Shown: positions 38,347 to 55,221, numbered from the stretch's first letter. The stretch: DNA of 60,439 bases from Campylobacterota bacterium (GCA_022600175.1 JAHZKW010000159.1:1-60439), one strand, 5' to 3'. Made by a program: numbers and translations. The notes: generated by a model not told the origin, from the letters alone.

Positions 38347-38385
38347 TGCATCTTAAAATGATAACGACTTTCATTTTAAGATGCA
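38347..38385. promoter_or_regulatory. palindromic operator candidate upstream of the Fur-fold regulator
   Basis: Perfect 15-bp arms TGCATCTTAAAATGA and TCATTTTAAGATGCA with a 9-nt spacer. The core CTTAAAATGA-N9-TCATTTTAAG (38352-38380) is identical to the site at 48946-48974. No T-run follows. Confidence 0.55.
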
Positions 38386-38442
38386 TTAAAGGAACTTTAT
38401 CGCACTATTATTTTTGAAAAAGATTTTCATTACTAAAGAGGT

Positions 38443-38853
38443 GTGATTTTGTTTGAAAAAGCGTTAGAAAAATTAGAGCAATGTATTAAAAGGAATGATT
38501 TAAACTATTCTGCTGTAAGAGAGGTCGCTCTCAAAGAGATTGCTTATGCGGAGCGAGGATTATGTGCAGATGAAATCCATCAAAGGGTAAATGAAAAGGT
38601 ACAGAAGAAAGTATCGTATAATACAGTCTATAGAGTGCTTCGTCTGTTTGAAGAGTGTGGTATTGTCATTACCATTCAAAGTAACGCTAAAAAAACACAC
38701 TATTTTCTTGCTGATGTGAAAACAAAGCTTTATCTTTTTGATGTTAAAAATCATCAAGTGAGTGCGATAAAAGCGCCTGATGTGGCAGATTCATTGCTAA
38801 AAGAGTTGGATCTAAATAGTACACACAATTTTATTGTTATCCATAAAAACTAA
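38443..38853 (+). CDS. Fur-family-fold transcriptional regulator lacking canonical metal-site motifs
   Basis: The N-terminal winged helix resembles Fur/PerR (AVREVALKEI...LCADEIHQRV...VSYNTVYRVLRLFEECGIV). There is no HHxH or CxxC cluster in the C-terminal half. The TTG at 38449 has better spacing to AAAGAGG than the tracked GTG. Confidence 0.6.
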   Translation: MILFEKALEKLEQCIKRNDLNYSAVREVALKEIAYAERGLCADEIHQRVNEKVQKKVSYNTVYRVLRLFEECGIVITIQSNAKKTHYFLADVKTKLYLFDVKNHQVSAIKAPDVADSLLKELDLNSTHNFIVIHKN

Positions 38854-38864
38854 AGGAGCAGATC

Positions 38865-39173
38865 ATGTCTGTTTTAGTGATTGGCGGAGATGATATTTTC
38901 GCTATCAAAGGTGTCTTGTATGGTTTAGGTGCCAAAGAAGTAAACCATTGGGATGGAGAGAAAAATGATGCTTTATCAGCCAAAGCAATTCCATCACATA
39001 CTGACTATATCCTTATGATGACTGATTTTATTAATCAAAAAATGGTGGATCAATATAAAAAAATGGCTCACAAAGAGGGGATTCCTTTAGTTTGCACAAG
39101 ACGTAGTGTGAGTTGTGTCTATGGGGAGTTTTGTAAAGTATTGGGTAAAGATTTTGGTTGCCCTTTTAACTAA
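38865..39173 (+). CDS. DUF2325-like small protein
   Basis: The pattern VLVIGGDD...HWDG...TDYILMMTDFINQKMV matches my memory of DUF2325. RBS AAAGGAG is present. Confidence 0.55.
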   Translation: MSVLVIGGDDIFAIKGVLYGLGAKEVNHWDGEKNDALSAKAIPSHTDYILMMTDFINQKMVDQYKKMAHKEGIPLVCTRRSVSCVYGEFCKVLGKDFGCPFN

Positions 39174-39190: not shown

Positions 39191-39253
39191 ATGAAACATG
39201 ATGAGTGTTTTGGGATGGATGATCTTATCGATCCTAATGGATGTACATGCTAA
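39191..39253 (+). CDS. unannotated 20-aa acidic Cys-containing peptide (MKHDECFGMDDLIDPNGCTC)
   Basis: AAGGAG at 39180-39185, 5-nt spacer, ATG at 39191, TAA at 39251-39253. It overlaps the apbE start codons and is below the ORF-track size cut-off. Confidence 0.35.
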   Translation: MKHDECFGMDDLIDPNGCTC

Positions 39254-40194
39254 ATAGAGGCTTGAAAGTAGTCGTGGTATGTTTGATACTACCACTGCTT
39301 TTATCTTCAGATATGGTAACCCGTAATCAAGTGATCATGGGTACAACTGCAACAATCTCTTTAGAAGAGCGTTATCAAAAAGAGATACAACAAGGGTTTC
39401 AACATCTGCATAAAATTGAACGCTCACTCTCTAGTTATGATCCTCATGCTTTAGTCTATCAACTTAACAGCAAAAAAAGTATTGAGCCAGATCGTTATCT
39501 TTTAGATGTTTTAGCGAAAAGTAGACATTTTTATCAGTTAACTGATGGTTATTTTGATATTACAGTGGGTGCCCTTACCAAGGGTTTATACCATTTTGGA
39601 GAGAAAGAGCGTCTACCTAGCTTACAAGCAATGGCGCAGGCAAAAGTAAATTTTTATGGCATTGTAGTTGATAAAAGAGAGATCACGTTGAAAGAGGGGA
39701 TCACGATTGATTTAGGTGGTATTGGTAAAGGATATGGTATCGATCAGGTGGCTGAGGTCTATGATGAAGTAAATATTACAGAAGGTAAGATCTCACTTAG
39801 TGGAGATATACGATGCATCGATCCTTGTCAATTTTTTATACAAGATCCATTTAATGTGCAAGAGAGATATTTTAATATGCAAGCAAAAATCCCTCATCTT
39901 GCAATTTCAACGAGTGGCACGTATGAACGTTATATAAAATCACAAAAAAATCATCACTTAATCAATCCCAAACGTAAAAAACAGGGGCAAGATTTTGTTT
40001 CAGTAACGATCTTTACAGATGGGGATAATACAAAAGCAGATGCTTTAGCCACAGCTGTTTCGGTGATGCCTAAAAAAGAAGCTATAGCATTTTTACAACA
40101 ACAAGGGATTGGCTATATTTTAATTGCACCCAATGCACAAGTAATCTCTGGAAATTTAGAGCGTTTTATAGAGTTTGATGATGAGATAGAGTGA
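39241..40194 (+). CDS. apbE: ApbE-family FAD:protein FMN transferase, exported
   Basis: Signal peptide, then VIMGTTATI and the DLGGIGKGYGIDQ motif typical of ApbE/Ftp. Confidence 0.85.
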   Translation: MYMLNRGLKVVVVCLILPLLLSSDMVTRNQVIMGTTATISLEERYQKEIQQGFQHLHKIERSLSSYDPHALVYQLNSKKSIEPDRYLLDVLAKSRHFYQLTDGYFDITVGALTKGLYHFGEKERLPSLQAMAQAKVNFYGIVVDKREITLKEGITIDLGGIGKGYGIDQVAEVYDEVNITEGKISLSGDIRCIDPCQFFIQDPFNVQERYFNMQAKIPHLAISTSGTYERYIKSQKNHHLINPKRKKQGQDFVSVTIFTDGDNTKADALATAVSVMPKKEAIAFLQQQGIGYILIAPNAQVISGNLERFIEFDDEIE

Positions 40195-40341
40195 AAGTAT
40201 ACAAAGTGTCAATGTTGAGAGTAGTTTTAAAAGGCTAAAGAATACAGTGCTACTGATAAAAAATGAGACAACATTGGAGGTGAGCATCACGATAAAAAGC
40301 AGAAGAGTGTATTTTGATATTTTATATTTGTGTTTGATCAC
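40156..40341 (-). CDS. small two-helix membrane protein
   Basis: 61 aa. GTG start forms a GTGA overlap with the upstream stop. The 3' end overlaps the apbE 3' end by 39 nt on the other strand. Confidence 0.35.
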   Translation of the reverse strand: MIKHKYKISKYTLLLFIVMLTSNVVSFFISSTVFFSLLKLLSTLTLCILSLYLIIKLYKTL

Positions 40342-40565
40342 AGCAAAAAGTGTGTTAATATAAAAAAGATGATACTCATACCAAATAGATGCGGACTTAC
40401 AGTCTCTAAAAGTCCAAAAAAACTTTTTTGCGTATAGTAGGCGGTGGTGCCATCAACTGACCAGTGGGTATGAAGTGTGAACATCCATGCACCGGTAATT
40501 AATAACAAGACAGTTAGCAGTAAAAAGTAGCGAATAACTATGGCAAAGTGTTGTTCTTGAGTCAT
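40338..40565 (-). CDS. small His-containing two-helix membrane protein
   Basis: Start re-set to the ATG at 40565 (MTQEQHF...), which forms an ATGA overlap with the upstream stop. It carries the motif LLETVSPHLF. Confidence 0.5.
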   Translation of the reverse strand: MTQEQHFAIVIRYFLLLTVLLLITGAWMFTLHTHWSVDGTTAYYTQKSFFGLLETVSPHLFGMSIIFFILTHFLL

Positions 40566-41032
40566 CGTGTTAATCCTATAAGTATCATGAGTGCCATGAG
40601 CATTGCTAGTAGATGCCACAGTATACATAGAACAATCCAGAATACAATAAAAGTAACACCCCAGTAATAGCCCATAAGTAGAGTGATATGAGAGAGTATG
40701 GCTGTACTAAAAGAGAAGTGTAGTAATTTATTGAGCACACTTGTCTGTTTTGCTACCGCAACAAAGATTGATGATATGACTAAGAGGGTGAGTAGTGAGA
40801 TGAAAATATCTATATGTACCCGCTCTAATAAAGTATCAAATAAAATTGGATCTATAAAGTTCTCTTCATCACCCATAATTGTTGAGGTGGCTGCTTCCAG
40901 GGTTAATCCAATTTGATAGTGATGTAGTATAAGATCCAAGATCAAAAAGAGAAGTAAAATGGCAGTAACCACCCATACAAGTTTTTTTAATAGTGGATTA
41001 TGATCTAACGTTTTAGTGACTAAAAACTTCAA
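40562..41032 (-). CDS. four-helix His-containing membrane protein
   Basis: 156 aa with about 4 TM helices and several intramembrane His residues. It carries the motif LLERVHIDIF. 4-nt overlap with the FMN-binding gene. Confidence 0.6.
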   Translation of the reverse strand: MKFLVTKTLDHNPLLKKLVWVVTAILLLFLILDLILHHYQIGLTLEAATSTIMGDEENFIDPILFDTLLERVHIDIFISLLTLLVISSIFVAVAKQTSVLNKLLHFSFSTAILSHITLLMGYYWGVTFIVFWIVLCILWHLLAMLMALMILIGLTR

Positions 41033-41544
41033 GGTGCTTTTACCTCAATCACTGCTAACGCAATTCTTGCAGCATCACTTAGTGCTCTTGCTGACATGGT
41101 AGCACCACTGATGGTCGGAATATCTTTCCCACTGATGATCATATCTTTGCCACTTTTCCCCGTAAATACAGCTTGCCATTTTTTGTTAGGTTTGTACTCT
41201 CTTGGTTCTGAGAAAGAGAGGATTTCAATTGATTTTAGTTTTTTACTGTTATCTATCATATATAAAACAGCAGCGTTTTTTGTGCGTATACGTCTTTTTA
41301 GAAGTACGCCATAGCCTACAAGGGTGTTCTCTTTTTTTAGATTATAAAGACGTACAATTTTAGAGTTTAACTTTGCTCTCGCTTTTTGTTGAATAGCTTG
41401 CGCCTCTTTTTTTGTTAAAATGATACTCTTTTTTTCTATAACAAGATCACTAGAAAAGTTTGTTTTTAAGATCTCTTCTACAGAAATATTACCTTTGGCA
41501 AAAAGTGTAGTTGCAAATGCAACTACAAGTAGTAAACCTCTCAT
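41029..41544 (-). CDS. exported FMN-binding-domain protein (flavinylation target)
   Basis: Signal peptide present. The C-terminal DIPTISGATMSARA matches the FMN_bind/ApbE substrate motif (SGAT). Confidence 0.75.
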   Translation of the reverse strand: MRGLLLVVAFATTLFAKGNISVEEILKTNFSSDLVIEKKSIILTKKEAQAIQQKARAKLNSKIVRLYNLKKENTLVGYGVLLKRRIRTKNAAVLYMIDNSKKLKSIEILSFSEPREYKPNKKWQAVFTGKSGKDMIISGKDIPTISGATMSARALSDAARIALAVIEVKAP

Positions 41545-42750
41545 TTATGGCTCCAAAAGATGTTCATAACGTTTATCTGTCAACGTTTTTAAAAATGCTT
41601 CCAGTGCATCTAACTTATCATCTGTAAGCTCAGGCATTGCAAGATCCTCATGATTGATAGTTGTATTAACATCAGTCTGTCTCCATGGTGCATTTGTTTC
41701 TGGATTGAGTGGTCGATCTCCATCACCCATATGATCATAAAACTCTAGTACAGTACGAAGTTCTTTGAAAACACCGTTATGCATATATGGCCCTGTAATA
41801 GCGATATTTCTCAGGGTCGGTACTTTGATTGCACCATCAAGTGCACTATCATTAATCGTACTTTGACTTAGTATACCATGTTCGGTTGTATTCTCATCTA
41901 ATCCTTTGATCGCTAAGATATCAAAGTTTTTAGGTGTTCCGATATTATGGTACTCATAGTTTGAAAAAGTTTCATTTTTAAGACCCTCTAATGACTGTAA
42001 CATATGACAGTTAATACAGTTTGTATTTGCTTCAGAAAAGAATAGGCTCATACCCAGCTCTTCAGGGATTGTCCAATTACCCTCGCTTAAACATACACTG
42101 GTGCGTTTTGTCTCCTTACAGGTTAAAAACCTATCATATTTAGAATCAAACGGTGCAAACTCTTCTGTTTTTTCAAACTTACCAATGGCCTCTCCCATTG
42201 CCTCATAAGAAGCATTGATATCATCAAAAATTCCTACGCCATAGTGTGTTTCAAATGCTATCACATAATCAGGGTTTTCTTTAATTCTATCAATCACAGC
42301 GTCACGACTTGGCATCATCATCTCTGCTTGATCTAGTGGAGGACCCATGGCTTGGTCTTTAAGGGTCGCAGCACGTCCATCATGAAATTGTCCCCCAATA
42401 TATTGTGAGTTATTTACATCAAAATGAAACGAAGGACTAAACATTGCATAAGCTGCTGTAGGAGCATTTCTTCCACCTAGTGCTGCGCCATCATCTCCGA
42501 CTGAGAGAGCCCCATTGACAAAGATACTTTGATCTGCATCTTCTGCTAAAAATCTGGCATCAATAAAGCCATGATCGGGATCATGACAGGTGGCACAGGC
42601 TGTTTGTCTATTGAGTGAAAGATTTGTATCAAAATAGAGACTTTTACCTAACTTCTCTTTTGTATCAAATGTGATACTTTCACTACTACCGCTCCCACAT
42701 GCACTAAAAAGTAGTGCAGTGGTGGTGAGATACATCAATGACTTTTTCAT
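41545..42750 (-). CDS. di-haem cytochrome c peroxidase (CCP/MauG family) lipoprotein
   Basis: Lipobox LFSAC. Haem motifs CATCH and CINCH are present, along with GGQFHDGRAATL and PTLRN blocks. Confidence 0.88.
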   Translation of the reverse strand: MKKSLMYLTTTALLFSACGSGSSESITFDTKEKLGKSLYFDTNLSLNRQTACATCHDPDHGFIDARFLAEDADQSIFVNGALSVGDDGAALGGRNAPTAAYAMFSPSFHFDVNNSQYIGGQFHDGRAATLKDQAMGPPLDQAEMMMPSRDAVIDRIKENPDYVIAFETHYGVGIFDDINASYEAMGEAIGKFEKTEEFAPFDSKYDRFLTCKETKRTSVCLSEGNWTIPEELGMSLFFSEANTNCINCHMLQSLEGLKNETFSNYEYHNIGTPKNFDILAIKGLDENTTEHGILSQSTINDSALDGAIKVPTLRNIAITGPYMHNGVFKELRTVLEFYDHMGDGDRPLNPETNAPWRQTDVNTTINHEDLAMPELTDDKLDALEAFLKTLTDKRYEHLLEP

Positions 42751-42759
42751 GCTATCCTC

Positions 42760-44100
42760 CTAAAAGATAAATCCAGCAGTTGCTGTAAAAACACTCTCAT
42801 CTGCTAATTTTGCATTTGAGGCATAATCTTTGGTGGCAAATTCTGCTTTGATTACCACTTTAGGATCAGGGAAATAGGCAATTCCAGCCGAGTATTCTAC
42901 AAATTTGTAGTTATCACTATATTGGGTTTCATCATCAGCATCAAGGTCAAGTCTCTCTAGATCTAAAACAGCAAAAAGTTTATGAGAAGTTTTATATTGG
43001 TGTAAGATATCGTAGCCTATTGTAAGATATTGACCATTGACACTTCCTGATATTGTTGAATCTTCAGTATTTAACTTTTTATATTCGTCTCCTAATGAAC
43101 CGACCACTGCAAGTGCTTGAATATCAAAACCGTTGTTTTTGTAACTGGCATGGGCTTCAGCCATTGTAATTGAGACATCAGCTTCTAAGGTATTGACAGT
43201 TGCACCTGGTTTATCTTGTGCTAAAACGGAGCTTTGTCCATAGTAGAGTGATCCACCAATATCAAGTCCAGGTTGTATCGTATATGCACCACGCGCCACA
43301 AAAGAGAGGTCATCTGTAAATTGGCGTGCCCCAAGTCTTCCTTGTTGGATAAAACGTCCTTCTGTAAATTTTCCAGCATCAGGCGATGTGACAATACCAA
43401 CGTAGTAGTCTACCTCTTTGATGTTACCATAGAGTAGAGCTCCATTTGTATGCCAAGTAGATGGGATGATATATGTTTCAACCAATGGACGCTCTGCTGT
43501 AAGATAAGAGGTAGGTTCATGGTTTAAGTTGATATTTCCAAATGGGGTGAGGATATGTCCAATACGTAAGTTATAAGCTTCATCAAACAAAAAATCAAGA
43601 TAAGAGAACTCTACGATCACATATTTATAGTTTTTTTCACCGTCACTTCTTGCCCCTCCGTCTTCAAATTCAACTTCTGTGTTCATCACAATCCAGTCAT
43701 TGAATTTGAATCCAAAGTAGGGTACAAAACGGACAACATTAGTCTCTGATGTCTCTCTTGTATCATTATTGACACTATCACTGTAGTTTTTAAAATCAGT
43801 ATACTTTTTATATTTGTAAGAGCCATAACCGCCTAAAGAGACAACAGAGTTTGAGTGGTAGACTTTTGAGGCCGCTTTTCCTAATGCACTGACACTTTCA
43901 TATGGGTCACCGCTAAAAGAGGGGTCTTTTGCATTTTCAATCTCCTCAATCAGTGTTTCGTTATTGGCTTGTTGCTCTTTTTTATAACTTTGAAATTCGC
44001 TTTTAAGGGCTTTGAGTTCTGCTTCAAGTTCTGCATTGCTTGCAGCATAAAGTACCATCTGTGAAGAGAGTACCAAGGATAGCGTGGTTTTTTTGATCAT
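42760..44100 (-). CDS. outer-membrane porin with N-terminal coiled coil (paralogue of 48999-50147)
   Basis: Signal peptide, coiled coil (ELEAELKALKSEFQ), beta-barrel pattern and C-terminal Phe (GFIF). Confidence 0.65.
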   Translation of the reverse strand: MIKKTTLSLVLSSQMVLYAASNAELEAELKALKSEFQSYKKEQQANNETLIEEIENAKDPSFSGDPYESVSALGKAASKVYHSNSVVSLGGYGSYKYKKYTDFKNYSDSVNNDTRETSETNVVRFVPYFGFKFNDWIVMNTEVEFEDGGARSDGEKNYKYVIVEFSYLDFLFDEAYNLRIGHILTPFGNINLNHEPTSYLTAERPLVETYIIPSTWHTNGALLYGNIKEVDYYVGIVTSPDAGKFTEGRFIQQGRLGARQFTDDLSFVARGAYTIQPGLDIGGSLYYGQSSVLAQDKPGATVNTLEADVSITMAEAHASYKNNGFDIQALAVVGSLGDEYKKLNTEDSTISGSVNGQYLTIGYDILHQYKTSHKLFAVLDLERLDLDADDETQYSDNYKFVEYSAGIAYFPDPKVVIKAEFATKDYASNAKLADESVFTATAGFIF

Positions 44101-44984
44101 AATTTTATTCCTTTGATAAATGGGTTTAAAAATAGTCCTAAAAGAGAGTGTGTAATCTGCTCATCTTTGAGTCCAAATGTTAAATTTTCTTTTTTTGTTG
44201 ATGTATGGGTTTTAAATAAAAAATCCCAGATTGCTAAATAGCTTCCATAATTTTTATGGCTATAGGCTTTGGTATGATGAAGTTGATGCTGGTAGGGTGA
44301 AATGATCCATTTTTCTACTTTTGTACCAAAACTCAGTGGTATATGTGAGTGTCTTAAGTTTGCACCTAAGAGTGAAAAGACAAAGACAAAAATATTAACA
44401 CCTAAAATTTCATATAGTGCAATACCTGCTCCAAAAAAGTAGATAAAAATAGCAGTGACCATACCTACACTCACTGCATATCGAAGACCAAAAAGAAGAT
44501 GTTCTATAGGGTGAATACGGTAATAGGTCAAAGGGTTAAGTACTTCAGCACTATGGTGAACTCTATGAAAACGCCATAAAATAGGTACTGTATGCATGAG
44601 TCTATGTAACCAATAACGGGTAAAGTCATTGACAATAAAAAGGGCACATGAATATCCTAGTACTAACCATAGTTTATCAACTCTAATCCGCTCCATATAA
44701 CCAAAGTAGTGTTGAAGTTGCATTACCGTCCAATAAGCAACATCACTAACACCAATGAGTAGTGGAATGAGTAATGTCATTTTAATTACTGTAGAGATCA
44801 TGAAATAGAGATAGTCTAATTGTGCTGATTTATGCCATAGGATTTTTTTTGAAAATTGTCTCTTTAAAATAGCAGGTGTGTGCCAAAAGAAGAGAAGTGC
44901 TAACACCAATGCACTCAACATATAGCCTATATAGATACGCTGATCTGCATCGATAAAGTAGTTAAACCCTAGTAATTCAGCCAT
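44097..44984 (-). CDS. membrane fatty-acid hydroxylase / sterol-desaturase superfamily di-iron enzyme
   Basis: His boxes HRLMH, HRVHH and HQLHH in a polytopic protein. Confidence 0.8.
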   Translation of the reverse strand: MAELLGFNYFIDADQRIYIGYMLSALVLALLFFWHTPAILKRQFSKKILWHKSAQLDYLYFMISTVIKMTLLIPLLIGVSDVAYWTVMQLQHYFGYMERIRVDKLWLVLGYSCALFIVNDFTRYWLHRLMHTVPILWRFHRVHHSAEVLNPLTYYRIHPIEHLLFGLRYAVSVGMVTAIFIYFFGAGIALYEILGVNIFVFVFSLLGANLRHSHIPLSFGTKVEKWIISPYQHQLHHTKAYSHKNYGSYLAIWDFLFKTHTSTKKENLTFGLKDEQITHSLLGLFLNPFIKGIKL

Positions 44985-46084
44985 TAGTCACCATCTGCCT
45001 CAATGATTTTAGAGGTAATGTTTAAAGCATTGATCAATGATAGATAGTAGCCATTGTGTAAATTGACTAAAGCCAAATAGAGCTCATGGATCTTTTCATC
45101 ACTCACACTCTCTTCAAGCGTTTTGTCAAAACTATCTACAAGGGTTTGTGCAGCATTGATGTAGCCGATCACCTCTTGTAACTCTTTACTTGCACTGTTT
45201 GCGTTGGCAAAATCAGAGAAATTACTAAAGCTTTGTGGTTTCATAAGCTTTGCATGTGTCTCTAAAATTGCTTTGATACCTTCTAATGAGGCACGACTTC
45301 TATAGTACTCTAGACGTTTTTGATTGGATTGATTTTTATACTTGACTGTTAAACCAGCAGCATCTCCAACACGCCACTCCTTGAGTTTATAAGAGCTATC
45401 TATGAGTATATTCATTAAGGAGTCTGATGCTTCTTGTACATCTGCTTTGAATGTTGTATCATTTTGATAGAAAGTTAGAATGGGTGTTGTTCTTTTGATA
45501 AGGTTATCTATCACTAATCCAATGGCTTGGATGCGTCGCTTATTACTCTTTTGCATCTCAACAAGCAGTGCTTCATTGGTCTCTGCTTCACCAAAAAGAA
45601 GATACTCTAATGCAGTAAAACCTTTAGTTGAGTTTTTATAGAGTAGTCCTGCTAAATCAGCTTCTTTAGCCAAGATATTATCTAAGAGTGTTGCAACACT
45701 CTCATTTCCGATATGAAAATGATCAATCAATATCACCAAATCTATAAGCTCTTTATCAAAATCAGCCGCAATAAATGCAGTTTGTACATTTTTCCAGCTA
45801 AAAGCAGACGTTTTAAAATTCTCTTGAATAAGAGCTAGTTGGTTGAGTGTGGTATTGGTTTCAAATGTGCTAACACTTGTTTTTAATGTTTGTAGTGATT
45901 GTTGTAATTTTTCTGCATCAGGAATGAGGATATTCTCTTGGATAGAGGTAAAGGCATCTGTCGTGGTTTGTGCTTTTGCACTGATAAGACCCTCTTCACC
46001 ATCATAGGCATTCTCTCCTCCACAAGCTGCAAAAAATAGAATTAGTATACCTCCAATGAGAGGCATCAATAGTTTTTTGAACAC
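44984..46084 (-). CDS. imelysin-like (Peptidase_M75 fold) lipoprotein, second copy
   Basis: Lipobox FFAAC. The motif GFTALEYLLFGE is typical of the imelysin family. Confidence 0.75.
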   Translation of the reverse strand: MFKKLLMPLIGGILILFFAACGGENAYDGEEGLISAKAQTTTDAFTSIQENILIPDAEKLQQSLQTLKTSVSTFETNTTLNQLALIQENFKTSAFSWKNVQTAFIAADFDKELIDLVILIDHFHIGNESVATLLDNILAKEADLAGLLYKNSTKGFTALEYLLFGEAETNEALLVEMQKSNKRRIQAIGLVIDNLIKRTTPILTFYQNDTTFKADVQEASDSLMNILIDSSYKLKEWRVGDAAGLTVKYKNQSNQKRLEYYRSRASLEGIKAILETHAKLMKPQSFSNFSDFANANSASKELQEVIGYINAAQTLVDSFDKTLEESVSDEKIHELYLALVNLHNGYYLSLINALNITSKIIEADGD

Positions 46085-46093
46085 ATGTTTCCT

Positions 46094-47449
46094 TTATAGT
46101 GAGTGCAAGAATTGTAAAACTTGCGCTCTTGATTTTTTATCTAATGCCATAAAAGCATTTTTTGATTTTTGGGCTTCGCCTCCATGCCAAAGAATTGCTT
46201 CTTCAATAGTTCGTGCACGTCCATCATGCAGATAGTTTGCTTCACCACTAACTGTTTTATAAAGACCGATTCCCCATAATGGTGCAGTTCTCCACTCTCT
46301 GCCATCTGCTAAAAACTCACTACGTCCATCTGCTAAACCTTCTCCCATATCATGAACCAATAGATCCGTAAATGGATGAATAGTTTCGCCATTTACTGTT
46401 TTATGTGTAGTGACATGACAAGCTGTACAGTTGAGCGTTTTGAAGAGTTTTGCACCTTTGGTATGTTGCTTAGGGTTTCGTTGGTTTGGTACACTAAGGT
46501 TTGATACATAATAAGTTATAGCGTCAAGTCTATTACCTGGTAAGTCAAAAGTATGTTTCCCTTTGGGTGCTTTTAAACAGGCCTCTTGTTTTTCACTGCA
46601 GTTGTCTGAAGGAAAGAGAGGGTTACTTAACCCCATATCGTTATGGGCAGCAGCTGCAGATTGCACTTTAACCGTGGATGCAGATGCTTTCCATGTAAAA
46701 CGTCCTAAAGTTGTTTTGTTTGTCTCTGGTGAATAGACAAGATTTGCTTTGCCTGAGATACCATCATGGTTACTATCATTGATATCTTCTAAGTTAAGAA
46801 TATCCTTTTGAGGGATATCCTCTAAAAGCCCTAATCCAATGAGTGGCGTACCGATACGTGGCGCAAAGATAGTCTCTTTGTCAAATGCTCCATAAACCTT
46901 TTTGGTAATAGTGTAGTGTGGTTTACGTAAACTATAAGTGGTGCCATCAGGATAAGTACCATCAATAGTATTATAAGTGAGGGATACTTTTCCTTCATAA
47001 GGGACACTATGGTTACCATTGAGACTAAGTTGTGCCCCATACATTGAGTCAGGTTCAAAACCTATTGTTTTTACCTTTTGCATATCTTTTGGGTTTTTAT
47101 GTGAAAGTCTTAGTAGATGTGATCTTGTCATGGTGCCGTTTTTTGTTACTGCCACGCCCGCACCATTGTTGGGATGACAGGTGATACATGTGTTGGCATT
47201 AAAGAGAGGTCCTAATCCATCTCGTGCTGTGGTTGCAGAGGGGGCCTCTACCCATGGTACACGAAAAAAACTTTTGCCTAAAATAAACATATCTTCTTCA
47301 TCATGTGTCATAGATTTGGGAGGGACGGAGAAGGATTTTTTGCAAGATTTATTTGTACTTAGAGTGCCGCCGAGTTTGCCATATTGATAATTTGAGGTAC
47401 TATTTCCAGTAACCGTAAAGGCTACCAGAAATATCAGTATATTTTTCAT
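46094..47449 (-). CDS. DUF1111 di-haem oxidoreductase (peroxidase-like)
   Basis: Haem motifs CITCH and CTACH. Its position between two imelysin genes matches the described imelysin/DUF1111 cluster. Confidence 0.8.
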   Translation of the reverse strand: MKNILIFLVAFTVTGNSTSNYQYGKLGGTLSTNKSCKKSFSVPPKSMTHDEEDMFILGKSFFRVPWVEAPSATTARDGLGPLFNANTCITCHPNNGAGVAVTKNGTMTRSHLLRLSHKNPKDMQKVKTIGFEPDSMYGAQLSLNGNHSVPYEGKVSLTYNTIDGTYPDGTTYSLRKPHYTITKKVYGAFDKETIFAPRIGTPLIGLGLLEDIPQKDILNLEDINDSNHDGISGKANLVYSPETNKTTLGRFTWKASASTVKVQSAAAAHNDMGLSNPLFPSDNCSEKQEACLKAPKGKHTFDLPGNRLDAITYYVSNLSVPNQRNPKQHTKGAKLFKTLNCTACHVTTHKTVNGETIHPFTDLLVHDMGEGLADGRSEFLADGREWRTAPLWGIGLYKTVSGEANYLHDGRARTIEEAILWHGGEAQKSKNAFMALDKKSRAQVLQFLHSL

Positions 47450-47451
47450 CT

Positions 47452-48882
47452 TTATTCAAGGTTACTGACATCAGTTTCATCTTCATCTGTGACATCTGCT
47501 GTTGTCATAGAGATACCAAACTCAGATGCAATTTTTACGATTTCATCACCTAAATCACGCATATCGTTTTTTGCATCTCTTACATTACTTCTGTTCACAC
47601 TATCAGCTTTAATTTGATAGTCAAAGTGTTCACCACCTGTTGCTTTTGCTGCTGCATCGATTTTTGCAACTTTTGTATCAATTGAGGTGATAAGTTCATC
47701 AATTTTAGCTTTTTCATCACTACTTAAAAGTGCATAAACACTGTTCCCATAGTCTGTACCATTATAGGTTCCCTTAAGTACGTTTGTAAAACCTTTATAG
47801 TTTAAGTCAATATCTCTATGTGTATTATCACTAAAGCATGAGTGTTCATCCTCTTCACTTGGTGTCAATACTGCGATTGCAATTCTCTCATTTGCTAATT
47901 CAGATTTGATAAACATACCCATTCCTGCAAAAATATCTTTGAGTGCTGTTGTTTGTGCAATATTCTTATCTGCATCTGTACCTGTTAATTCACCTAAAAG
48001 TGCTTTTCTATATTTACCTTTATCTCCATCAAGATCTTTGTTCCAAGCATCTCTTACAACGATAAGATCATCAACAAGTTTGGTTGCTGCTGCATTTAAG
48101 TACGCCTTTCTTCTTTCACTTTCAGTATTATCATCTGTATAATCTGATAAAGATCTTTCACCTGCCTTTTGCGCACCATGAGTAATGTTATCTGCACCTG
48201 GTGTTTCATAATCTTGATCTTGTCCCCAAAGTAAAAACTCGATCGCATGGTATCCTGTTGCAACATTGGCTTCACCACCATTTTCGTTGAGTGCTGTCAG
48301 TGTTGCAACATTGATCGTTGCAATATTGATCTCAGTTGCATTTTCATCACTATCAGTAGATGTATCCGGTGTGAATAATCCTGTTGAGTCGATGATGTTT
48401 CCAGTTGTTCTCTCTCCTTGATCATCAATTGTATAATCGATCATGTTTTCATCTAGTGGCCATGCATTGATCTGTCCCTCAAGTGCACCATAAGCCTCTT
48501 CAACCCAATTTCCCTCTGCATCAACTGGTCCATTTGAGAGTCTAAAGATTTCAGTTTGACCATAAGATTCACGAGAAGTAAGCCATGCATCTTTTGCTGC
48601 TTGTAGTGTTGTTTCTGTTGGTGTTGTTGTAAATGCTTCAAGTGCGGTTTTGAGTGCTTGTGCATCTGTGATTGAGTCTGTGTAAGCATCAAGTGCAATG
48701 TTTGAGTAGCTCTCTAAAACACTTTTAATTGTTTTTGTTTGTGCGGTTGCGTTCATATCTTTTACCATGGTAAAAGTTTCTGTAGCTGTTGTAGTGTCAT
48801 TGTTACTACTGCCACATCCGACCATTGATAGTGAAAGTGCTGCCGCTAATGACAAAGCACCTAATTGATTTCTGATTTTCAT
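47452..48882 (-). CDS. imelysin-like iron-regulated protein A type lipoprotein
   Basis: Lipobox MVGC. It carries the motif GYHAIEFLLWGQD. Confidence 0.8.
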   Translation of the reverse strand: MKIRNQLGALSLAAALSLSMVGCGSSNNDTTTATETFTMVKDMNATAQTKTIKSVLESYSNIALDAYTDSITDAQALKTALEAFTTTPTETTLQAAKDAWLTSRESYGQTEIFRLSNGPVDAEGNWVEEAYGALEGQINAWPLDENMIDYTIDDQGERTTGNIIDSTGLFTPDTSTDSDENATEINIATINVATLTALNENGGEANVATGYHAIEFLLWGQDQDYETPGADNITHGAQKAGERSLSDYTDDNTESERRKAYLNAAATKLVDDLIVVRDAWNKDLDGDKGKYRKALLGELTGTDADKNIAQTTALKDIFAGMGMFIKSELANERIAIAVLTPSEEDEHSCFSDNTHRDIDLNYKGFTNVLKGTYNGTDYGNSVYALLSSDEKAKIDELITSIDTKVAKIDAAAKATGGEHFDYQIKADSVNRSNVRDAKNDMRDLGDEIVKIASEFGISMTTADVTDEDETDVSNLE

Positions 48883-48942
48883 CTCTTCTCCTATTTAATA
48901 TTGATATTAGATTTCAAAATTATATTAACCAAACCTTATTCG

Positions 48943-48977
48943 AGACTTAAAATGATAATTGTTATCATTTTAAGTCT
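48943..48977. promoter_or_regulatory. palindromic operator candidate (Fur-box-like) upstream of the imelysin operon
   Basis: 16-bp arms AGACTTAAAATGATAA and TTATCATTTTAAGTCT with a 3-nt centre. It contains TGATAAT-t-GTTATCA (7-1-7 Fur-box-like). TATAAT on the minus strand lies at 48924-48919. Confidence 0.55.
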
Positions 48978-48998
48978 TATGGCTGATAGGGTGTAATA

Positions 48999-50147
48999 TT
49001 AAAAGACGTAAGCCGTACCTAGCTCTATACGGTTGTCATCTTCTCCTTTATTATCTCGGATCATATAATCCACTTTTAAAATGACATTTTTAGTGGGTTG
49101 GTAGTTAAGTCCGATGACTGTGTTTGTGACATCGTCATCAGCTGGAACTTCTGTTCCTTCTTGATTATATTTTTCATCGAAACGGTTATATGTTTCATAC
49201 CGTATGAAAGGGGTGAAGTGCTCATTGATATCATATGAGGCATTAAGATAGTAACCTACACCTTTACCCGATGCATTCTTTTCTAATTTTTGTGCTACTT
49301 TTGCTGCATCATCAACTTGACTCATCGCATAAAGACCTCTTATTGCAAAACCTTGGATTTTATAACCAGCATGTACCTCTGCAATAGTGGTACTTACACC
49401 ATCAAGAGTATTATCCCCTTGACTTGCATCACCCGTAAAAACTGAAGCACCTAGCATCAGACCTGGCACACCTTGATAATCAACCCGTGCCACAATGCCA
49501 AAATCATCTGCTTTTGATTTTTGTCCACTTTGACGCATAGCCCGTACTTCGCTACCTTGTCCCGCATTAAGTCCTGCAACAATACCTATTTGATAAGCGA
49601 TGTCTGAGATACTTCCATGTAAGATTGCACCATTTTCATGCCATGTAGAAGGGATGATATACTTTTCAACTTCTGGACGATTCACAGCGTTAAAAGCAGT
49701 AGCTTCATGATAGAGGTTGATATAGCCTACTGGAACGATGACATGACCTAGTTTTACACTTGCCATTTCATTGAGTGTGAAGTCTAAGTAGGCTTGTTCA
49801 ACAATGCCATATCCACCAGTTTTTTCTCGTCCACCATGTTCCCACTCTAGTTCAGAAACAAATTTGATATTATCTGTAAATTGGTATCCAACATAGAGAA
49901 TAGCACGATAGATATCTAGTTTATCTGTTGCGTCGTCATCATCTAGGTATTTGATATAATCCATCTTCCCATAACCACCGATTGAGACACGATCCATTAC
50001 TGAAGATGCACTCTCCTTTTCTTGCATTGTTGCAATTTCGTTGATCAATTGATCATATTTTGTATTGAGCTCTTCTAGATTAGCTGCATTTATTTGTGTC
50101 ACTGCACAAAGACTCATTACTGTCATAAGACTATGTAATTTTTTCAT
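48999..50147 (-). CDS. outer-membrane porin with N-terminal coiled coil
   Basis: It shares RPEVEKYIIPSTWHENGAILHG with 42760-44100 (RPLVETYIIPSTWHTNGALLYG). C-terminal Phe (AYVF). Confidence 0.65.
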   Translation of the reverse strand: MKKLHSLMTVMSLCAVTQINAANLEELNTKYDQLINEIATMQEKESASSVMDRVSIGGYGKMDYIKYLDDDDATDKLDIYRAILYVGYQFTDNIKFVSELEWEHGGREKTGGYGIVEQAYLDFTLNEMASVKLGHVIVPVGYINLYHEATAFNAVNRPEVEKYIIPSTWHENGAILHGSISDIAYQIGIVAGLNAGQGSEVRAMRQSGQKSKADDFGIVARVDYQGVPGLMLGASVFTGDASQGDNTLDGVSTTIAEVHAGYKIQGFAIRGLYAMSQVDDAAKVAQKLEKNASGKGVGYYLNASYDINEHFTPFIRYETYNRFDEKYNQEGTEVPADDDVTNTVIGLNYQPTKNVILKVDYMIRDNKGEDDNRIELGTAYVF

Positions 50148-50340: not shown

Positions 50341-50844
50341 CTAATTTAAATATGATTTAATTGAATCAATCCACTGATCGATTCTCTTTTCTGTTAATTC
50401 ATCTTGATTATCTTCATCTAATGCAAGACCTACAAAGGCGTTATCAACAATGGCTGTTGATTCATCAAAATCATAACCTTCAGTTGACCATCCGTTACCA
50501 ACTACATTGGCACCTTTATCTACAGCATATTTGTAAAGTGTTCCCATCGCATCTAAATAGTTATCAGGGTATCCATCTTGATCTCCAAGACCAAAAAATG
50601 CTACTGTTTTACCAGCAAAATCCACCTCTTTAAAGTCATCTTCAAAATCTTCCCAATCATCTTGTAAGTCGCCTTCTCCCCATGTGGAAGTTCCAATGAT
50701 AAGTTCAGTATAGGTTTGAAAATCTTCTGCTTTGGCATTTGCGATATCATGCATCTCAACTTCTACATCTAGTTTTGATTTGATTATTTCTGCGACACGC
50801 TCAGTTGCACCGCCATTACTGCCATAAAAAATGCCTATTGCCAT
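50341..50844 (-). CDS. fldA: long-chain flavodoxin
   Basis: MAIGIFYGSNGGATE FMN-phosphate loop. 167 aa, acidic. Confidence 0.92.
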   Translation of the reverse strand: MAIGIFYGSNGGATERVAEIIKSKLDVEVEMHDIANAKAEDFQTYTELIIGTSTWGEGDLQDDWEDFEDDFKEVDFAGKTVAFFGLGDQDGYPDNYLDAMGTLYKYAVDKGANVVGNGWSTEGYDFDESTAIVDNAFVGLALDEDNQDELTEKRIDQWIDSIKSYLN

Positions 50845-51626: not shown

Positions 51627-51772
51627 CTTAAATCCTTTTTGAATTTGAAAATAGTTATCGAAATGATATTGTTTTATTCTTAAAATAAATTGAAATCGAA
51701 AATGGTTATCAAATTAAGTTGTAAGTAAGTTTGCCTCTTTTATGATTGCATCATCAATTGAGGAGTTGTGTC

Positions 51773-54220: not shown

Positions 54221-54245
54221 AAAGTAAAAGAGAAAAGGAAAAAGT

Positions 54246-55196: not shown

Positions 55197-55221
55197 TTAG
55201 TGAATAAGTAGGAGTAAAGCA

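What the first reader, a model, noticed from the sequence alone, without database searches (positions are those of the whole stretch)
40156..50147. Expanded imelysin / DUF1111 / imelysin cluster: a periplasmic haem-flavin redox operon with no recognisable iron permease
The described, functionally unresolved iron-uptake-associated cluster is imelysin, DUF1111 di-haem protein, imelysin and DUF1513. Here the first three are present (47452-48882, 46094-47449, 44984-46084), but no DUF1513-like gene is recognisable. In its place are a membrane di-iron fatty-acid hydroxylase, a second porin, a CCP/MauG-type di-haem peroxidase, an FMN-binding protein and three small membrane proteins. All are joined by gaps of at most 9 nt or by ATGA/GTGA/TAATG overlaps. 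A paralogous porin and a Fur-box-like operator lie upstream, and ApbE is encoded convergently. The parts echo EfeO (M75 fold) plus EfeB (peroxidase), but no FTR1/EfeU, Feo or ABC permease is recognisable. This could be a peroxide- or flavin-linked Fe(II)/Fe(III) handling system whose membrane component is novel.
Basis: partly seen in the sequence, partly recalled or inferred. Interest (0 to 1): 0.8.

Follow-up and report, generated by a model that had tools for sequence, protein, structure and literature searches.

The report
Iron-regulated flavin–haem periplasmic redox operon
This gene cluster joins a known but unexplained iron-uptake gene trio to a previously undescribed flavin-carrying module that probably carries electrons across the inner membrane, which gives a testable idea of how such iron systems are powered.

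Summary
The cluster is real and tightly packed on the minus strand (40156-48882, plus a porin at 48999-50147). The domain calls are correct, with one exception. The "three small membrane proteins" are two paralogous PF27139 (Aq_1264_TM) genes, and the second is broken by a 1-nt deletion in a T-run.

Comparative genomics splits the operon into two separable modules. Module B is imelysin(GxHxxE), DUF1111/DHOR, imelysin(GxxxxE), FA-hydroxylase, porin paralogue and a MauG-like di-haem enzyme. Module A is a porin, an FMN_bind protein with an ApbE flavinylation motif, the PF27139 pair, and convergent ApbE.

Module A is conserved in at least three phyla and usually occurs without imelysins. In Anaeromyxobacter it sits in a fur-feoB-feoA operon. 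Some relatives fuse PF27139 to ApbE. The only invariant residues of PF27139 are two histidines 13 apart in TM2, a spacing seen in transmembrane bis-haem helices. Fur-box-like palindromes precede both modules.

Best reading: a Fur-regulated periplasmic iron-redox system. A flavinylated protein, fed through a new putative haem membrane conduit, supplies electrons to Efe-like iron-handling proteins. Iron itself enters through a transporter encoded elsewhere, most likely Feo. The membrane component is novel in function but is more likely an electron conduit than a permease. All function is inferred.

The parts
48999..50147 (-). Porin382: Porin_O_P/BBP2-type outer-membrane barrel with signal peptide, N-terminal coiled coil and C-terminal Phe. 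It is the orthologue of the porin that accompanies module A elsewhere.
   Evidence: Pfam hit. It is 54-64% identical to the porins next to FMN_bind-P1-P2 in L001, L005 and L010.
48953..48967 (.). Fur-box-like palindrome TGATAACAATTATCA, 71 nt upstream of the imelysin 1 ATG.
   Evidence: It is the only exact match in the window. Similar sites lie upstream of the modules in 15 of the 16 contigs scanned; 29 of 73 matches fall in 1.35% of the sequence.
47452..48882 (-). Imelysin 1 (ICMP/PA4370-type lipoprotein with a GxHxxE motif, GYHAIE).
   Evidence: PF09375 E=2e-64. PDB 7xrx IcmP E=1e-52. The lipobox LSMVGC is read.
46094..47449 (-). DHOR/DUF1111 di-haem c protein (CITCH and CTACH motifs).
   Evidence: PF06537 E=5e-89. 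No sequence relative in the PDB.
44984..46084 (-). Imelysin 2 (IPPA/PA4372-type lipoprotein with a GxxxxE motif, GFTALE).
   Evidence: PF09375 E=3e-16. The motif is read. The classes are as defined in PMC3143127.
44097..44984 (-). Membrane di-iron FA_hydroxylase-superfamily protein (FAH).
   Evidence: PF04116 E=1e-24. The His boxes H127/H131, H140/H143/H144, H212/H214 and H233/H236/H237 are invariant in 5 orthologues. The gene is always between imelysin 2 and the MauG-like gene.
42760..44100 (-). OMP446: a paralogue of Porin382 inside the operon.
   Evidence: 36% identity, E=4e-60, to Porin382. It is adjacent to the MauG-like gene in L003, L015, L016 and L018.
41545..42750 (-). MauG-like di-haem c lipoprotein (CATCH and CINCH motifs; Tyr294-equivalent present).
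   Evidence: PF03150 E=8e-38. phmmer against PDB MauG gives E=3e-88, 299 bits, versus 1e-17 for classical CCPs. The Tyr is conserved in 8 of 8 orthologues, while Trp93 and Trp199 are not.
41029..41544 (-). Periplasmic FMN_bind protein (NqrC/RnfG-like) with the ApbE flavinylation motif DIPTISGAT.
   Evidence: PF04205 E=3e-7. Weak RnfG hits. The motif is conserved in homologues from other phyla.
40562..41032 (-). P1: a PF27139 (Aq_1264_TM) 4-TM protein, 156 aa, TTG start.
   Evidence: Homologues carry PF27139. AF2 gives a 4-helix TM bundle, pLDDT 83. H73 is the only invariant His across phyla.
40156..40565 (-). P2: the second PF27139 paralogue (136 aa if repaired), interrupted by a -1 frameshift at the T5 run 40345-40349. 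It carries the family's two invariant His (H55 and H68).
   Evidence: The AF2 model of homologue P0069 has pLDDT 90. The invariant H-x12-H motif is shown.
39241..40194 (+). ApbE FAD:protein FMN transferase, convergent, with a 39-nt 3' overlap with P2.
   Evidence: PF02424 E=1.5e-57. The convergent position is conserved in L001, L005, L009-L012, L014, L016, L019 and L022.
38443..39173 (+). Divergent Fur-family regulator (38443-38853) and DUF2325 protein (38865-39173), recurrent neighbours of the modules.
   Evidence: Orthologues lie next to the modules in L003, L013, L016 and L023.
50341..51626 (-). Unknown 263-aa protein plus long-chain flavodoxin (FldA-type). This is an iron-sparing gene pair with Fur-box-like sites upstream (51646-51711), and the flavodoxin is a possible cytoplasmic electron donor.
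   Evidence: The pair is conserved near the modules in L013, L023 and L024.

Best explanation
The region is a Fur-controlled composite operon of a Sulfurovum-like Campylobacterota genome. It is made of two modules that also occur separately.

Module B consists of imelysin(GxHxxE), DUF1111/DHOR, imelysin(GxxxxE), an FA-hydroxylase-family membrane protein, a porin paralogue and a MauG-like di-haem enzyme. It is an outer-membrane/periplasmic, Efe-like iron-binding and haem-redox unit.

Module A consists of a porin, a secreted FMN_bind protein that ApbE flavinylates on the Thr of its SGAT motif, and a heterodimer of two 4-TM PF27139 proteins. It is an electron-supply unit.

The proposed electron flow runs in three steps. 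First, a cytoplasmic donor (flavodoxin, flavin reductase or a Bfd-type ferredoxin) or the quinol pool reduces His-ligated haem(s) b held between P1 and P2. Second, those haems reduce the covalently bound periplasmic FMN. Third, the FMN passes electrons either to Fe(III) held by the imelysins or entering through the porins, or to the di-haem c proteins.

The Fe(II) produced is imported by a transporter encoded elsewhere, most likely Feo. The operon itself encodes no permease.

What is shown: gene content, synteny, motifs, fusions and operator-like sites. What is inferred: haem binding, direction of electron flow, the acceptor, and Feo as the exit route.
For: 1. Modularity. tblastn of the window proteins against 22 fetched contigs shows the following.
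- Porin/FMN_bind/P1/P2/ApbE occurs alone in L001, L005-L007, L009-L012, L014, L017, L021 and L022.
- It is joined to module B in two different orders: A then B in L003, and B then A in the window, L015 and L016.
- Module B occurs without A in L023-L026.

2. Link of PF27139 to flavinylation.
- FMN_bind lies directly upstream of PF27139 in every context seen where the upstream DNA is present, including Sulfurimonas, Anaeromyxobacter, Bdellovibrionales and unbinned metagenome contigs.
- In two remote members PF27139 is fused to ApbE (P0176, P0198).
- L103 is a minimal two-gene system of FMN_bind plus a PF27139::ApbE fusion.
- P0175 is a natural P1-P2 fusion, which supports a heterodimer.
- The flavinylation motif D-x3-[ST]GAT is conserved.

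3. Haem-like signature.
- In an alignment of 84 diverse family members the only invariant columns are two His 13 residues apart in TM2.
- P1 keeps the outer His.
- A spacing of 13-14 residues on one helix is seen in bis-haem membrane proteins (NOX/FRD TM5, MsrQ, cytochrome b; own knowledge).
- Conserved-His logic led to the experimental proof that DUF4405 and the dimeric FezC are flavinylation-associated cytochromes (PMC10979944).

4. Cytoplasmic redox neighbours of the TM pair are Flavin_Reduct (L018), Fer2_BFD (L019) and flavodoxin (window, L013, L023/24).

5. Iron link.
- The exact Fur-box-like palindrome sits before imelysin 1.
- Such sites are about 29-fold enriched upstream of the modules in the 16 contigs scanned, matching in 15 of them (p about 6e-35, not corrected for intergenic AT bias).
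- L019 reads fur-feoB-x-feoA-porin-FMN_bind-P1-P2-bfd, with ApbE and ferritin adjacent.
- FeoA lies 8 kb from the cluster in L003.
- TonB receptors flank module A in L005 and the window.

6. c-type haem partners are adjacent to FMN_bind. A MauG-like gene directly precedes it in the window, L015, L016 and L018; in L003 the MauG-like gene is at the far end of the cluster. A di-haem c lipoprotein precedes it in L020.
Against: - No experiment exists on any PF27139 protein, and no paper mentions the family.
- PF27139 shows no sequence or fold relationship to any known membrane cytochrome. Foldseek against the PDB gives E>3 for both models, the Pfam scan of 84 members gives no recurrent hit, and the profile search of the PDB finds nothing.
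- Across phyla the P1/P2 pair offers only three universally conserved His, so a second bis-His haem is not guaranteed.
- The heterodimer could not be modelled.
- In this window P2 is frameshifted, so the module may be inactive here, or the sequence may carry a homopolymer error.
- The Fur-box statistic is not corrected for AT-rich intergenic composition, and the local Fur-family regulator is too divergent to type.
- The role of the FA-hydroxylase is unexplained.
- The MauG-like enzyme may not be an electron acceptor at all.
Confidence: 0.5

Rival explanations
1. This is a peroxide-handling system rather than an iron-uptake system. Module A feeds electrons through FMN to the di-haem enzymes (DHOR and the MauG-like protein), which reduce H2O2 in the periplasm. 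The purpose would be detoxification, use of peroxide as an electron acceptor, or protection of Fe(II) from Fenton chemistry during iron starvation.
For: - Two peroxidase-superfamily di-haem proteins are in the operon.
- OMP-MauG-like-FMN_bind-P1-P2 occurs without imelysins in Sulfurimonas (L018).
- The Leptospira imelysin/DUF1111/imelysin operon is induced by H2O2 as well as by iron limitation (PMC7567364).
- The local Fur-family regulator could be PerR-like.
Against: - The 'CCP' has the MauG-type Tyr ligand, which according to PMC7567364 distinguishes MauGs from peroxidatic CCPs.
- Most module A loci carry no peroxidase at all.
- The neighbourhood is iron-type: feoAB, ferritin, TonB receptors, flavodoxin and Fur boxes.
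Confidence: 0.2
2. The P1/P2 pair is itself the missing permease. It would be a new 8-TM heterodimeric Fe(II) channel whose conserved His (and often a Glu five residues before the outer His) bind the metal, with the FMN protein acting as the ferric reductase that loads it.
For: - No other permease is present in the operon or window.
- The module always includes a porin and a periplasmic reductase-like protein.
- The conserved His and LLE motif lie at the periplasmic end of TM2.
Against: - The acidic residue is replaced by Lys in many members (LLK/VLK), and only the two His are invariant.
- Fusion to ApbE and cytoplasmic redox neighbours fit electron transfer better.
- In Anaeromyxobacter the module is co-operonic with feoB/feoA, which already supplies a permease.
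- The FMN protein would then have no encoded electron source.
Confidence: 0.1
3. PF27139 proteins are accessory factors for flavinylation. They could be an exporter that delivers FAD to periplasmic ApbE or a membrane dock for ApbE and its substrate. On this reading they are not part of the working electron path.
For: - PF27139::ApbE fusions exist, and L103 is a minimal two-gene system of FMN_bind plus the fusion.
- How FAD reaches periplasmic ApbE is unknown for most Gram-negatives (own knowledge).
- Paired small 4-TM proteins recall heterodimeric small transporters (own knowledge).
Against: - Most ApbE-dependent systems (Nqr, Rnf, NosR) work without PF27139, and the family is rare, with 98 clusters at 50% identity among 1.84 billion representatives.
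- An invariant H-x12-H in one TM helix is not a known flavin-transport motif.
- The module would then lack any route for electrons.
Confidence: 0.12
4. The MauG-like enzyme matures a partner protein rather than acting as a peroxidase. Using H2O2 or O2 plus electrons, it would oxidise an aromatic residue of an imelysin, DHOR or the porin to create a metal-binding or redox cofactor. Known precedents are MauG with methylamine dehydrogenase and MbnH with MbnP. This can coexist with the main explanation.
For: - It is close to MauG (E=3e-88) with the Tyr294-equivalent conserved in 8 of 8 orthologues.
- No methylamine dehydrogenase gene is nearby.
- An imelysin 2-FAH-MauG-like trio recurs: a second copy in L016, and in L023-L024.
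- The W199 partner-interface residue differs, as expected for a different substrate.
Against: - The inter-haem Trp93, which is important for bis-Fe(IV) charge resonance, is His, Tyr or Leu here.
- No candidate modified residue was identified.
- In L018 the enzyme occurs without imelysins.
Confidence: 0.15

Closest known systems
Fur-regulated imelysin / DUF1111 / imelysin (/DUF1513) clusters (P. aeruginosa PA4370-PA4373, V. cholerae VC1264-VC1266, Leptospira LruB operon)
   Same: The first three genes match in order and in class: an ICMP-type imelysin with GxHxxE, a DUF1111 di-haem protein, then an IPPA-type imelysin with GxxxxE. A Fur-box-like operator is present and no permease is encoded.
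   Different: There is no DUF1513. The trio is extended by an FA-hydroxylase-family protein, a porin paralogue and a MauG-like enzyme, and is fused to an FMN_bind/PF27139/ApbE module.
EfeUOB / EfeM ferrous-iron uptake system
   Same: An M75-fold periplasmic iron-binding protein works next to a haem peroxidase-type enzyme. The overall logic is periplasmic Fe(II)/Fe(III) redox handling.
   Different: There is no EfeU/FTR1 permease and no cupredoxin domain. The haem enzymes are di-haem c proteins, not the DyP-type EfeB (own knowledge; PMC3143127 equates the two).
ApbE-flavinylation-associated extracytosolic electron-transfer systems (PepSY-like/FoxB, MsrQ-like, DUF4405/FezC, NapH-like, Listeria EET PplA-FmnB-EetAB)
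   Same: A secreted FMN_bind protein with the flavinylation motif, a neighbouring ApbE and a dedicated membrane protein with conserved TM histidines are all present. There are repeated links to iron assimilation.
   Different: The membrane partner (PF27139, a heterodimer of two 4-TM proteins) is not one of the eleven described classes. It has no detectable sequence or fold similarity to them. A porin is a near-constant member.
MauG / MbnH / BthA family of Tyr-ligated di-haem enzymes
   Same: The protein scores 299 bits against P. denitrificans MauG, and both CxxCH motifs and the Tyr294 ligand are conserved.
   Different: No methylamine dehydrogenase or MbnP partner is nearby. Trp93 and Trp199 are replaced. 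It scores below the NCBIfam MauG and MbnH cut-offs.
Porin-cytochrome outer-membrane conduits (MtrCAB, PioAB, Cyc2)
   Same: A dedicated outer-membrane barrel is encoded next to a periplasmic redox protein and an inner-membrane electron module.
   Different: The barrel is a Porin_O_P/BBP2-type porin of about 380-450 aa, not a 26-strand MtrB-type or fused Cyc2 barrel. The redox protein is a flavoprotein, not a multihaem cytochrome. No test of insertion was possible.

Membership tests
Canonical imelysin/DUF1111/imelysin/DUF1513 cluster | ICMP-type imelysin with a GxHxxE motif as the first gene | tested here: met
   PF09375 E=2e-64; GYHAIE; IcmP (7xrx) E=1e-52.
Canonical imelysin/DUF1111/imelysin/DUF1513 cluster | DUF1111 (DHOR) di-haem protein between the two imelysins | tested here: met
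   PF06537 E=5e-89; two CxxCH motifs.
Canonical imelysin/DUF1111/imelysin/DUF1513 cluster | Second imelysin of the IPPA type (GxxxxE, His lost) | tested here: met
   PF09375 E=3e-16; GFTALE.
Canonical imelysin/DUF1111/imelysin/DUF1513 cluster | DUF1513 protein as the fourth gene | tested here: not met
   Every ORF of the operon is assigned to another family. The same is true in L003, L015, L016 and L023.
Canonical imelysin/DUF1111/imelysin/DUF1513 cluster | Fur regulation | tested here: inconclusive
   An exact palindrome lies 71 nt upstream, and such sites are conserved and enriched in relatives. No expression data exist.
EfeUOB | FTR1-family permease EfeU | tested here: not met
   No PF03239 hit in the operon or in the annotated window ORFs.
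EfeUOB | DyP-type peroxidase EfeB | tested here: not met
   The haem enzymes are PF06537 and PF03150 di-haem c proteins.
ApbE-flavinylated extracytosolic electron-transfer system | Secreted FMN_bind domain with the [ST]GA[ST] flavinylation motif | tested here: met
   PF04205 hit; signal peptide; DIPTISGAT; conserved in L018-L020.
ApbE-flavinylated extracytosolic electron-transfer system | ApbE encoded in the same cluster | tested here: met
   39241-40194, PF02424 E=1.5e-57, convergent. The position is conserved, and ApbE fusions to PF27139 exist.
ApbE-flavinylated extracytosolic electron-transfer system | Membrane component that carries electrons (cofactor binding shown) | not testable with these tools
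   Only conservation (invariant H-x12-H) and context support it. A haem spectrum of the expressed protein is needed.
Known flavinylation-associated membrane cytochromes (PepSY_TM, MsrQ/Ferric_reduct, DUF4405) | Sequence or fold membership | tested here: not met
   No Pfam hit for 84 members at E<=1. Foldseek against the PDB gives E>3. The profile search of the PDB finds nothing.
PF27139 (Aq_1264_TM) | Match to the Pfam model | tested here: inconclusive
   The model is absent from the local Pfam copy, so the window proteins give no hit. The database's precomputed annotation gives PF27139 for the window's own 75-aa P2 fragment (P0066) and for the homologues of both genes, but lists no domain for the window's own P1 (P0001).
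MauG family | Two CxxCH haems with Tyr (Tyr294) as the distal ligand of the six-coordinate haem | tested here: met
   Aligned to MauG with Y at the LEFYDH position; 8 of 8 orthologues. The criterion is quoted in PMC7567364.
MauG family | Inter-haem Trp93, interface Trp199, and a methylamine dehydrogenase substrate | tested here: not met
   W93 is replaced by H, Y or L and W199 is replaced by E, Q or N. No mau genes are in the window. The TIGR03791 score is 77, against a cut-off of 444.
Bacterial cytochrome c peroxidase (classical CCP) | Met/His-ligated electron-transfer haem and close similarity to CcpA-type enzymes | tested here: not met
   The best classical CCP hit is E=6e-17, against 3e-88 for MauG, and Tyr occupies the ligand position.
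Fatty-acid hydroxylase superfamily | Tripartite His-box motif (HxxxH, HxxHH, HxxHH) in a multi-TM protein | tested here: met
   PF04116 E=1e-24; the His boxes are invariant in 5 orthologues. The substrate is unknown; the OlsE score is 56, against a cut-off of 475.

The most novel reading that the evidence does not exclude
Porin + flavinylated FMN_bind protein + PF27139 heterodimer + ApbE may be a previously unrecognised, multi-phylum, Fur/Feo-linked system. In it, a new class of dimeric, His-ligated haem membrane protein would carry electrons from the cytoplasm to a periplasmic covalent flavin, which reduces Fe(III) for Feo-dependent uptake. In Sulfurovum-like bacteria this module would be hard-wired to the imelysin/DUF1111 trio and a MauG-like enzyme. 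That would reveal the long-missing electron source of imelysin-type iron systems.
Probability: 0.4. Interest if true: 0.75.

Novelty: new variant of a known kind. Interest (0 to 1): 0.64.

Why it matters
Imelysin/DUF1111 clusters are widespread, Fur-regulated and linked to virulence (IcmP, LruB). Since 2011, however, nobody has known how they are connected to the cell's electron pool or to an iron permease.

This locus and its relatives physically link the trio to an ApbE-flavinylated periplasmic protein and a dedicated membrane partner. The same partner module sits in a fur-feoB-feoA operon in another phylum.

That gives a concrete, testable wiring diagram: cytoplasmic donor, then PF27139, then FMN, then iron or di-haem proteins, then Feo.

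It also nominates PF27139 as a further class of flavinylation-associated membrane redox protein, alongside PepSY-like, MsrQ-like and DUF4405/FezC. The family is small (98 clusters at 50% identity) and wholly unstudied.

It further flags a recurrent association of imelysin, FA-hydroxylase and a MauG-like enzyme that has no explanation yet.

Tried and rejected
- Structural homology for the membrane proteins. AF2 models of P1 (pLDDT 83) and P2 (pLDDT 90) are plain 4-TM bundles. Foldseek against the PDB gave nothing below E=3. A profile search of PDB sequences and a Pfam scan of 84 family members were also empty. The shorter palindrome was used instead.\n- The promoter and terminator scans were not enriched over shuffles, so they were not used.\n- Rfam and tRNA scans of the window were empty.\n- Literature searches for aq_1264/PF27139, for MauG plus imelysin, for FMN-binding plus FeoB plus ApbE plus porin, and for PA4370-72 found no description of this architecture.\n- 'Three membrane proteins' and 'GTGA overlap' were rejected in favour of a frameshift.\n- 'Classical cytochrome c peroxidase' was rejected for 41545-42750.\n- 'Chance juxtaposition of two operons' was rejected. 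The junction has a 0-nt gap, and the A+B linkage recurs in two different orders.\n- Dissimilatory Fe(II) oxidation was considered and set aside. The reasons are the low potential expected of an NqrC/RnfG-type FMN, the Fur-type regulation and the feo/ferritin context. This is inference and was not tested.

Full report
OBSERVATION

- 48999-50147: a Porin_O_P/BBP2-type porin.
- 47452-48882: an imelysin (PF09375, E=2e-64) with a lipobox and GYHAIE (GxHxxE). It is related to P. aeruginosa IcmP, PDB 7xrx, E=1e-52.
- 46094-47449: a DHOR/DUF1111 di-haem protein (E=5e-89).
- 44984-46084: a second imelysin (E=3e-16) with GFTALE (GxxxxE).
- 44097-44984: an FA_hydroxylase-superfamily membrane protein with intact His boxes.
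- 42760-44100: a second barrel, 36% identical to the first porin (E=4e-60).
- 41545-42750: a CCP_MauG di-haem lipoprotein.
- 41029-41544: an FMN_bind protein.
- 39241-40194 (+): ApbE, convergent.

From imelysin 1 to the last gene the junctions are gaps of 0-9 nt or overlaps of 1-4 nt. A 116-nt spacer separates the upstream porin from imelysin 1. It holds the only exact TGATAAnnATTATCA palindrome of the whole 60-kb window, at 48953-48967.

No DUF1513, FTR1, Feo or iron-type ABC gene is in the cluster or among the other annotated ORFs of the window. The left half of the window is a phosphate-starvation island.

CORRECTION: TWO MEMBRANE GENES, NOT THREE

The "three small membrane proteins" are two genes.
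- P1 (40562-41032, 156 aa) starts at TTG, and its N-terminus MKFLVTK matches all homologues.
- The ORFs 40338-40628 and 40156-40341 are two halves of one P2 gene.
- The minus strand reads CAC TTTTT GCT GTG ATC, with the T5 run at 40345-40349. One more T gives ...LTHFFAVIKHKY....
- The repaired 136-aa product aligns end to end with about 50 uninterrupted homologues of about 135 aa.
- The reported "GTGA overlap" is therefore a -1 frameshift. It is either a homopolymer sequencing error or a real lesion.

TWO MODULES

Homologues of P1 and P2 carry the recently created Pfam family PF27139 (Aq_1264_TM), which is absent from the local Pfam copy.

I fetched their genomic contexts and ran tblastn with all window proteins. 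The result is clear-cut.
- The set porin, FMN_bind, P1, P2 with a convergent ApbE (module A) is the conserved unit. It is seen in L001, L005-L007, L009-L012, L014 and L017, all from Sulfurovum or Campylobacterales MAGs. In some short contigs the ApbE side is cut off.
- The six genes imelysin 1, DHOR, imelysin 2, FAH, OMP446 and the MauG-like gene (module B) are attached to A in only four cases.
- Those four use two different orders: B then A in the window, L015 and L016, and A then B in L003.
- In the window, module B looks inserted between the porin and the FMN_bind gene of a module A.
- A metagenome scan seeded with the FA-hydroxylase found module B without A. L023 reads DUF2325-Fur-x-imelysin 1-DHOR-imelysin 2-FAH-MauG-like, followed by Fe(III)-type solute-binding proteins.
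- The same scan found more distant FAH relatives next to TonB receptors, HmuY-like proteins and imelysins.
- L016 has a second imelysin 2-FAH-MauG-like trio.

The membrane proteins belong to the flavin unit.

THE PF27139 FAMILY

A profile search of 1.84 billion cluster representatives found only 98 members at E<=1e-3.

In an alignment of 84 of them (mean identity 26%), the only invariant columns are two histidines 13 residues apart in TM2, with consensus PH-x12-HF. P1-type paralogues keep only the outer His.

AlphaFold models of P1 (pLDDT 83) and of a P2 homologue (pLDDT 90) are 4-TM bundles. Neither model nor profile resembles anything solved or any other Pfam family.

Remote members give three fusions that link the parts.
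- P0176 and P0198 are PF27139 plus a fifth TM helix plus ApbE.
- P0198 is preceded by an overlapping FMN_bind gene, giving a minimal two-gene system.
- P0175 is a P1-like and P2-like fusion preceded by FMN_bind, which supports a P1/P2 heterodimer.

Contexts in other phyla repeat the module.
- Sulfurimonas sp. HSL3-7: OMP, MauG-like, FMN_bind, P1, P2, Flavin_Reduct.
- Anaeromyxobacter terrae: fur, feoB, a 75-aa gene, feoA/DtxR-like, porin, FMN_bind, P1, P2, a Bfd-type [2Fe-2S] protein, with convergent ApbE and ferritin.
- A Bdellovibrionales contig: a di-haem c lipoprotein, FMN_bind, P1, P2.
- Two further contigs: porin, FMN_bind, P1, P2, with ApbE adjacent in L022 and about 4 kb away in L021.

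The flavinylation motif D-x3-[ST]GAT is conserved in all FMN_bind homologues.

IRON LINK

Fur-box-like palindromes lie just upstream of the first gene of module A or B in 15 of the 16 contigs scanned.
- 29 of 73 matches fall in 1.35% of the sequence, binomial p about 6e-35.
- The test is not corrected for the AT-richness of intergenic DNA.

The neighbourhoods also point to iron.
- The feoAB/fur/ferritin/bfd context in Anaeromyxobacter.
- FeoA near L003.
- TonB-dependent receptors (window 52118-54220; L005).
- A Fur-family regulator and a flavodoxin next to the window cluster.

In Leptospira the canonical trio responds to both iron limitation and H2O2 (PMC7567364).

THE "CCP"

Against PDB sequences the protein matches Paracoccus MauG at E=3e-88 (299 bits). 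Classical peroxidases score about 1e-17 and a PDB 'di-heme enzyme' entry (6e1c) 6e-14.

The Tyr294 haem ligand is conserved in all eight orthologues examined. PMC7567364 cites this residue as the feature that separates MauGs from CCPs. Trp93 and Trp199 are replaced, and no methylamine dehydrogenase is nearby.

It is best called a MauG-like, Tyr-ligated di-haem enzyme with an unknown partner.

MECHANISM (INFERRED)

The most economical model is that ApbE flavinylates the secreted FMN_bind protein. A P1/P2 heterodimer would hold at least one bis-His haem b near the periplasmic face, using the outer His of each subunit. A second site would involve the inner His of P2.

The heterodimer would pass electrons from a cytoplasmic donor (flavodoxin, flavin reductase or a Bfd-like ferredoxin are recurrent neighbours) or from quinol to the periplasmic FMN.

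The flavoprotein would then do one or both of two things.
- Reduce Fe(III) that enters through the dedicated porins or is held on the imelysins, releasing Fe(II) for Feo.
- Reduce the di-haem c proteins (DHOR, MauG-like), which would otherwise lack a donor.

Precedents are the PepSY-like, MsrQ-like and DUF4405/FezC cytochromes. These were recognised by the same logic of ApbE neighbourhood plus conserved TM histidines, and DUF4405 and the homodimeric FezC were shown experimentally to bind haem (PMC8238504 and PMC10979944).

A 13-14-residue His spacing on a single helix occurs in bis-haem membrane proteins (own knowledge).

I put 0.5 on this overall model. My confidence in the parts is:
- about 0.85 for the two-module, flavinylation-linked architecture;
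- about 0.7 for iron regulation;
- about 0.45-0.5 for haem-based electron conduction by PF27139.

RIVALS

- A peroxide-reducing system (0.2). Most module A loci lack any peroxidase and the "CCP" is MauG-type, but Leptospira data and L018 keep this reading alive.
- P1/P2 as a new Fe(II) permease (0.1). The acidic residue near the outer His is often Lys, the module is co-operonic with Feo, and the ApbE fusions argue against it.
- P1/P2 as a FAD exporter or ApbE accessory (0.12). This fits the fusions but leaves the system without an electron path.
- MauG-like maturation of a partner protein (0.15). This is compatible with the main model.

COMPARISON AND NOVELTY

The first three genes are a bona fide member of the known imelysin/DUF1111/imelysin cluster type, minus DUF1513. 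The system works like EfeUOB in outline, but it is not a member because EfeU and the DyP-type EfeB are absent.

Module A meets the defining features of ApbE-flavinylated extracytosolic electron-transfer systems. Its membrane partner, however, is none of the described classes, and no paper mentions the family.

I rate the whole as a new variant of a known kind. If PF27139 proves to be a haem conduit feeding iron reduction, it would be a new class within that kind, and the first proposed electron source for imelysin systems.

CAVEATS

- Everything functional is inferred from sequence and context.
- P2 is frameshifted in this window.
- The genome and metagenome scans used narrow peptide patterns, so counts are lower bounds.
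- The heterodimer could not be modelled.
- The role of the FA-hydroxylase is unexplained.

Noticed in passing
window 40338-40349 (minus strand): A T5 homopolymer where the homologues imply T6 splits the second PF27139 gene into 75-aa and 61-aa ORFs. A -1 slip on the run would restore the conserved HFFA(V/I)IK sequence. It may be a sequencing error, a pseudogene or slippage.
   Followed up: partly
window 40156-40194; L001 10834-10872; L005 12199-12237; L022 8485-8525: The 3' ends of P2 and the convergent ApbE overlap by about 39-41 nt. The overlap is conserved from Campylobacterota through to the unbinned metagenome contig L022. It suggests a shared terminator or antisense coupling.
   Followed up: no
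window 50341-51626 (-): A 263-aa protein with no Pfam or NCBIfam hit overlaps the start of a long-chain flavodoxin by 10 nt. The pair recurs near the modules in L013, L023 and L024. It is preceded by two Fur-box-like sites (51646-51711).
   Followed up: partly
window 52118-60311 (+): A metal-chelate uptake-type cluster made of a TonB-dependent receptor, an unknown 316-aa protein, a MotA/ExbB-like protein, DUF2149 and a 1348-aa CobN-like chelatase subunit. The receptor and the 316-aa protein also flank module A in L005.
   Followed up: partly
window 38443-39173 (+): A divergent Fur-family regulator scores below every NCBIfam cut-off, so Fur, Irr and PerR cannot be told apart. It is followed by a DUF2325 protein. 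Both are recurrent neighbours of the modules (L003, L013, L016, L023), and Fur-box-like sites lie at 38359-38429.
   Followed up: partly
window 1062-24343: A phosphate-starvation island containing PhoD, a PhoX-like phosphatase, a PHO4 transporter, PstC/PstA-like permeases and sensor kinases.
   Followed up: no
L016 15973-18857 (-); L023-L026: A shorter recurrent trio of IPPA-type imelysin, FA-hydroxylase and MauG-like enzyme exists on its own. More distant relatives of this FA-hydroxylase sit beside TonB receptors, HmuY-like proteins and imelysins in the metagenome contigs L030 and L032 (L030's receptor carries a CarboxypepD_reg domain). No function is known for this association.
   Followed up: partly
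window 41506-41527 (-): A 9-bp hairpin followed by CTTTTTG lies 18 nt inside the FMN_bind ORF, exactly at the junction of modules B and A. The terminator scan as a whole is not enriched (7 found, 7.9 expected), so this may be chance.
   Followed up: no
L019 (Anaeromyxobacter terrae JALCYY010000058) 2088-10422: A single locus reads fur-feoB-(75 aa)-feoA/DtxR-like-porin-FMN_bind-P1-P2-Bfd-like [2Fe-2S], with convergent ApbE and ferritin. This is the clearest link between the PF27139 module and Feo-type iron uptake, and a good experimental entry point.
   Followed up: partly
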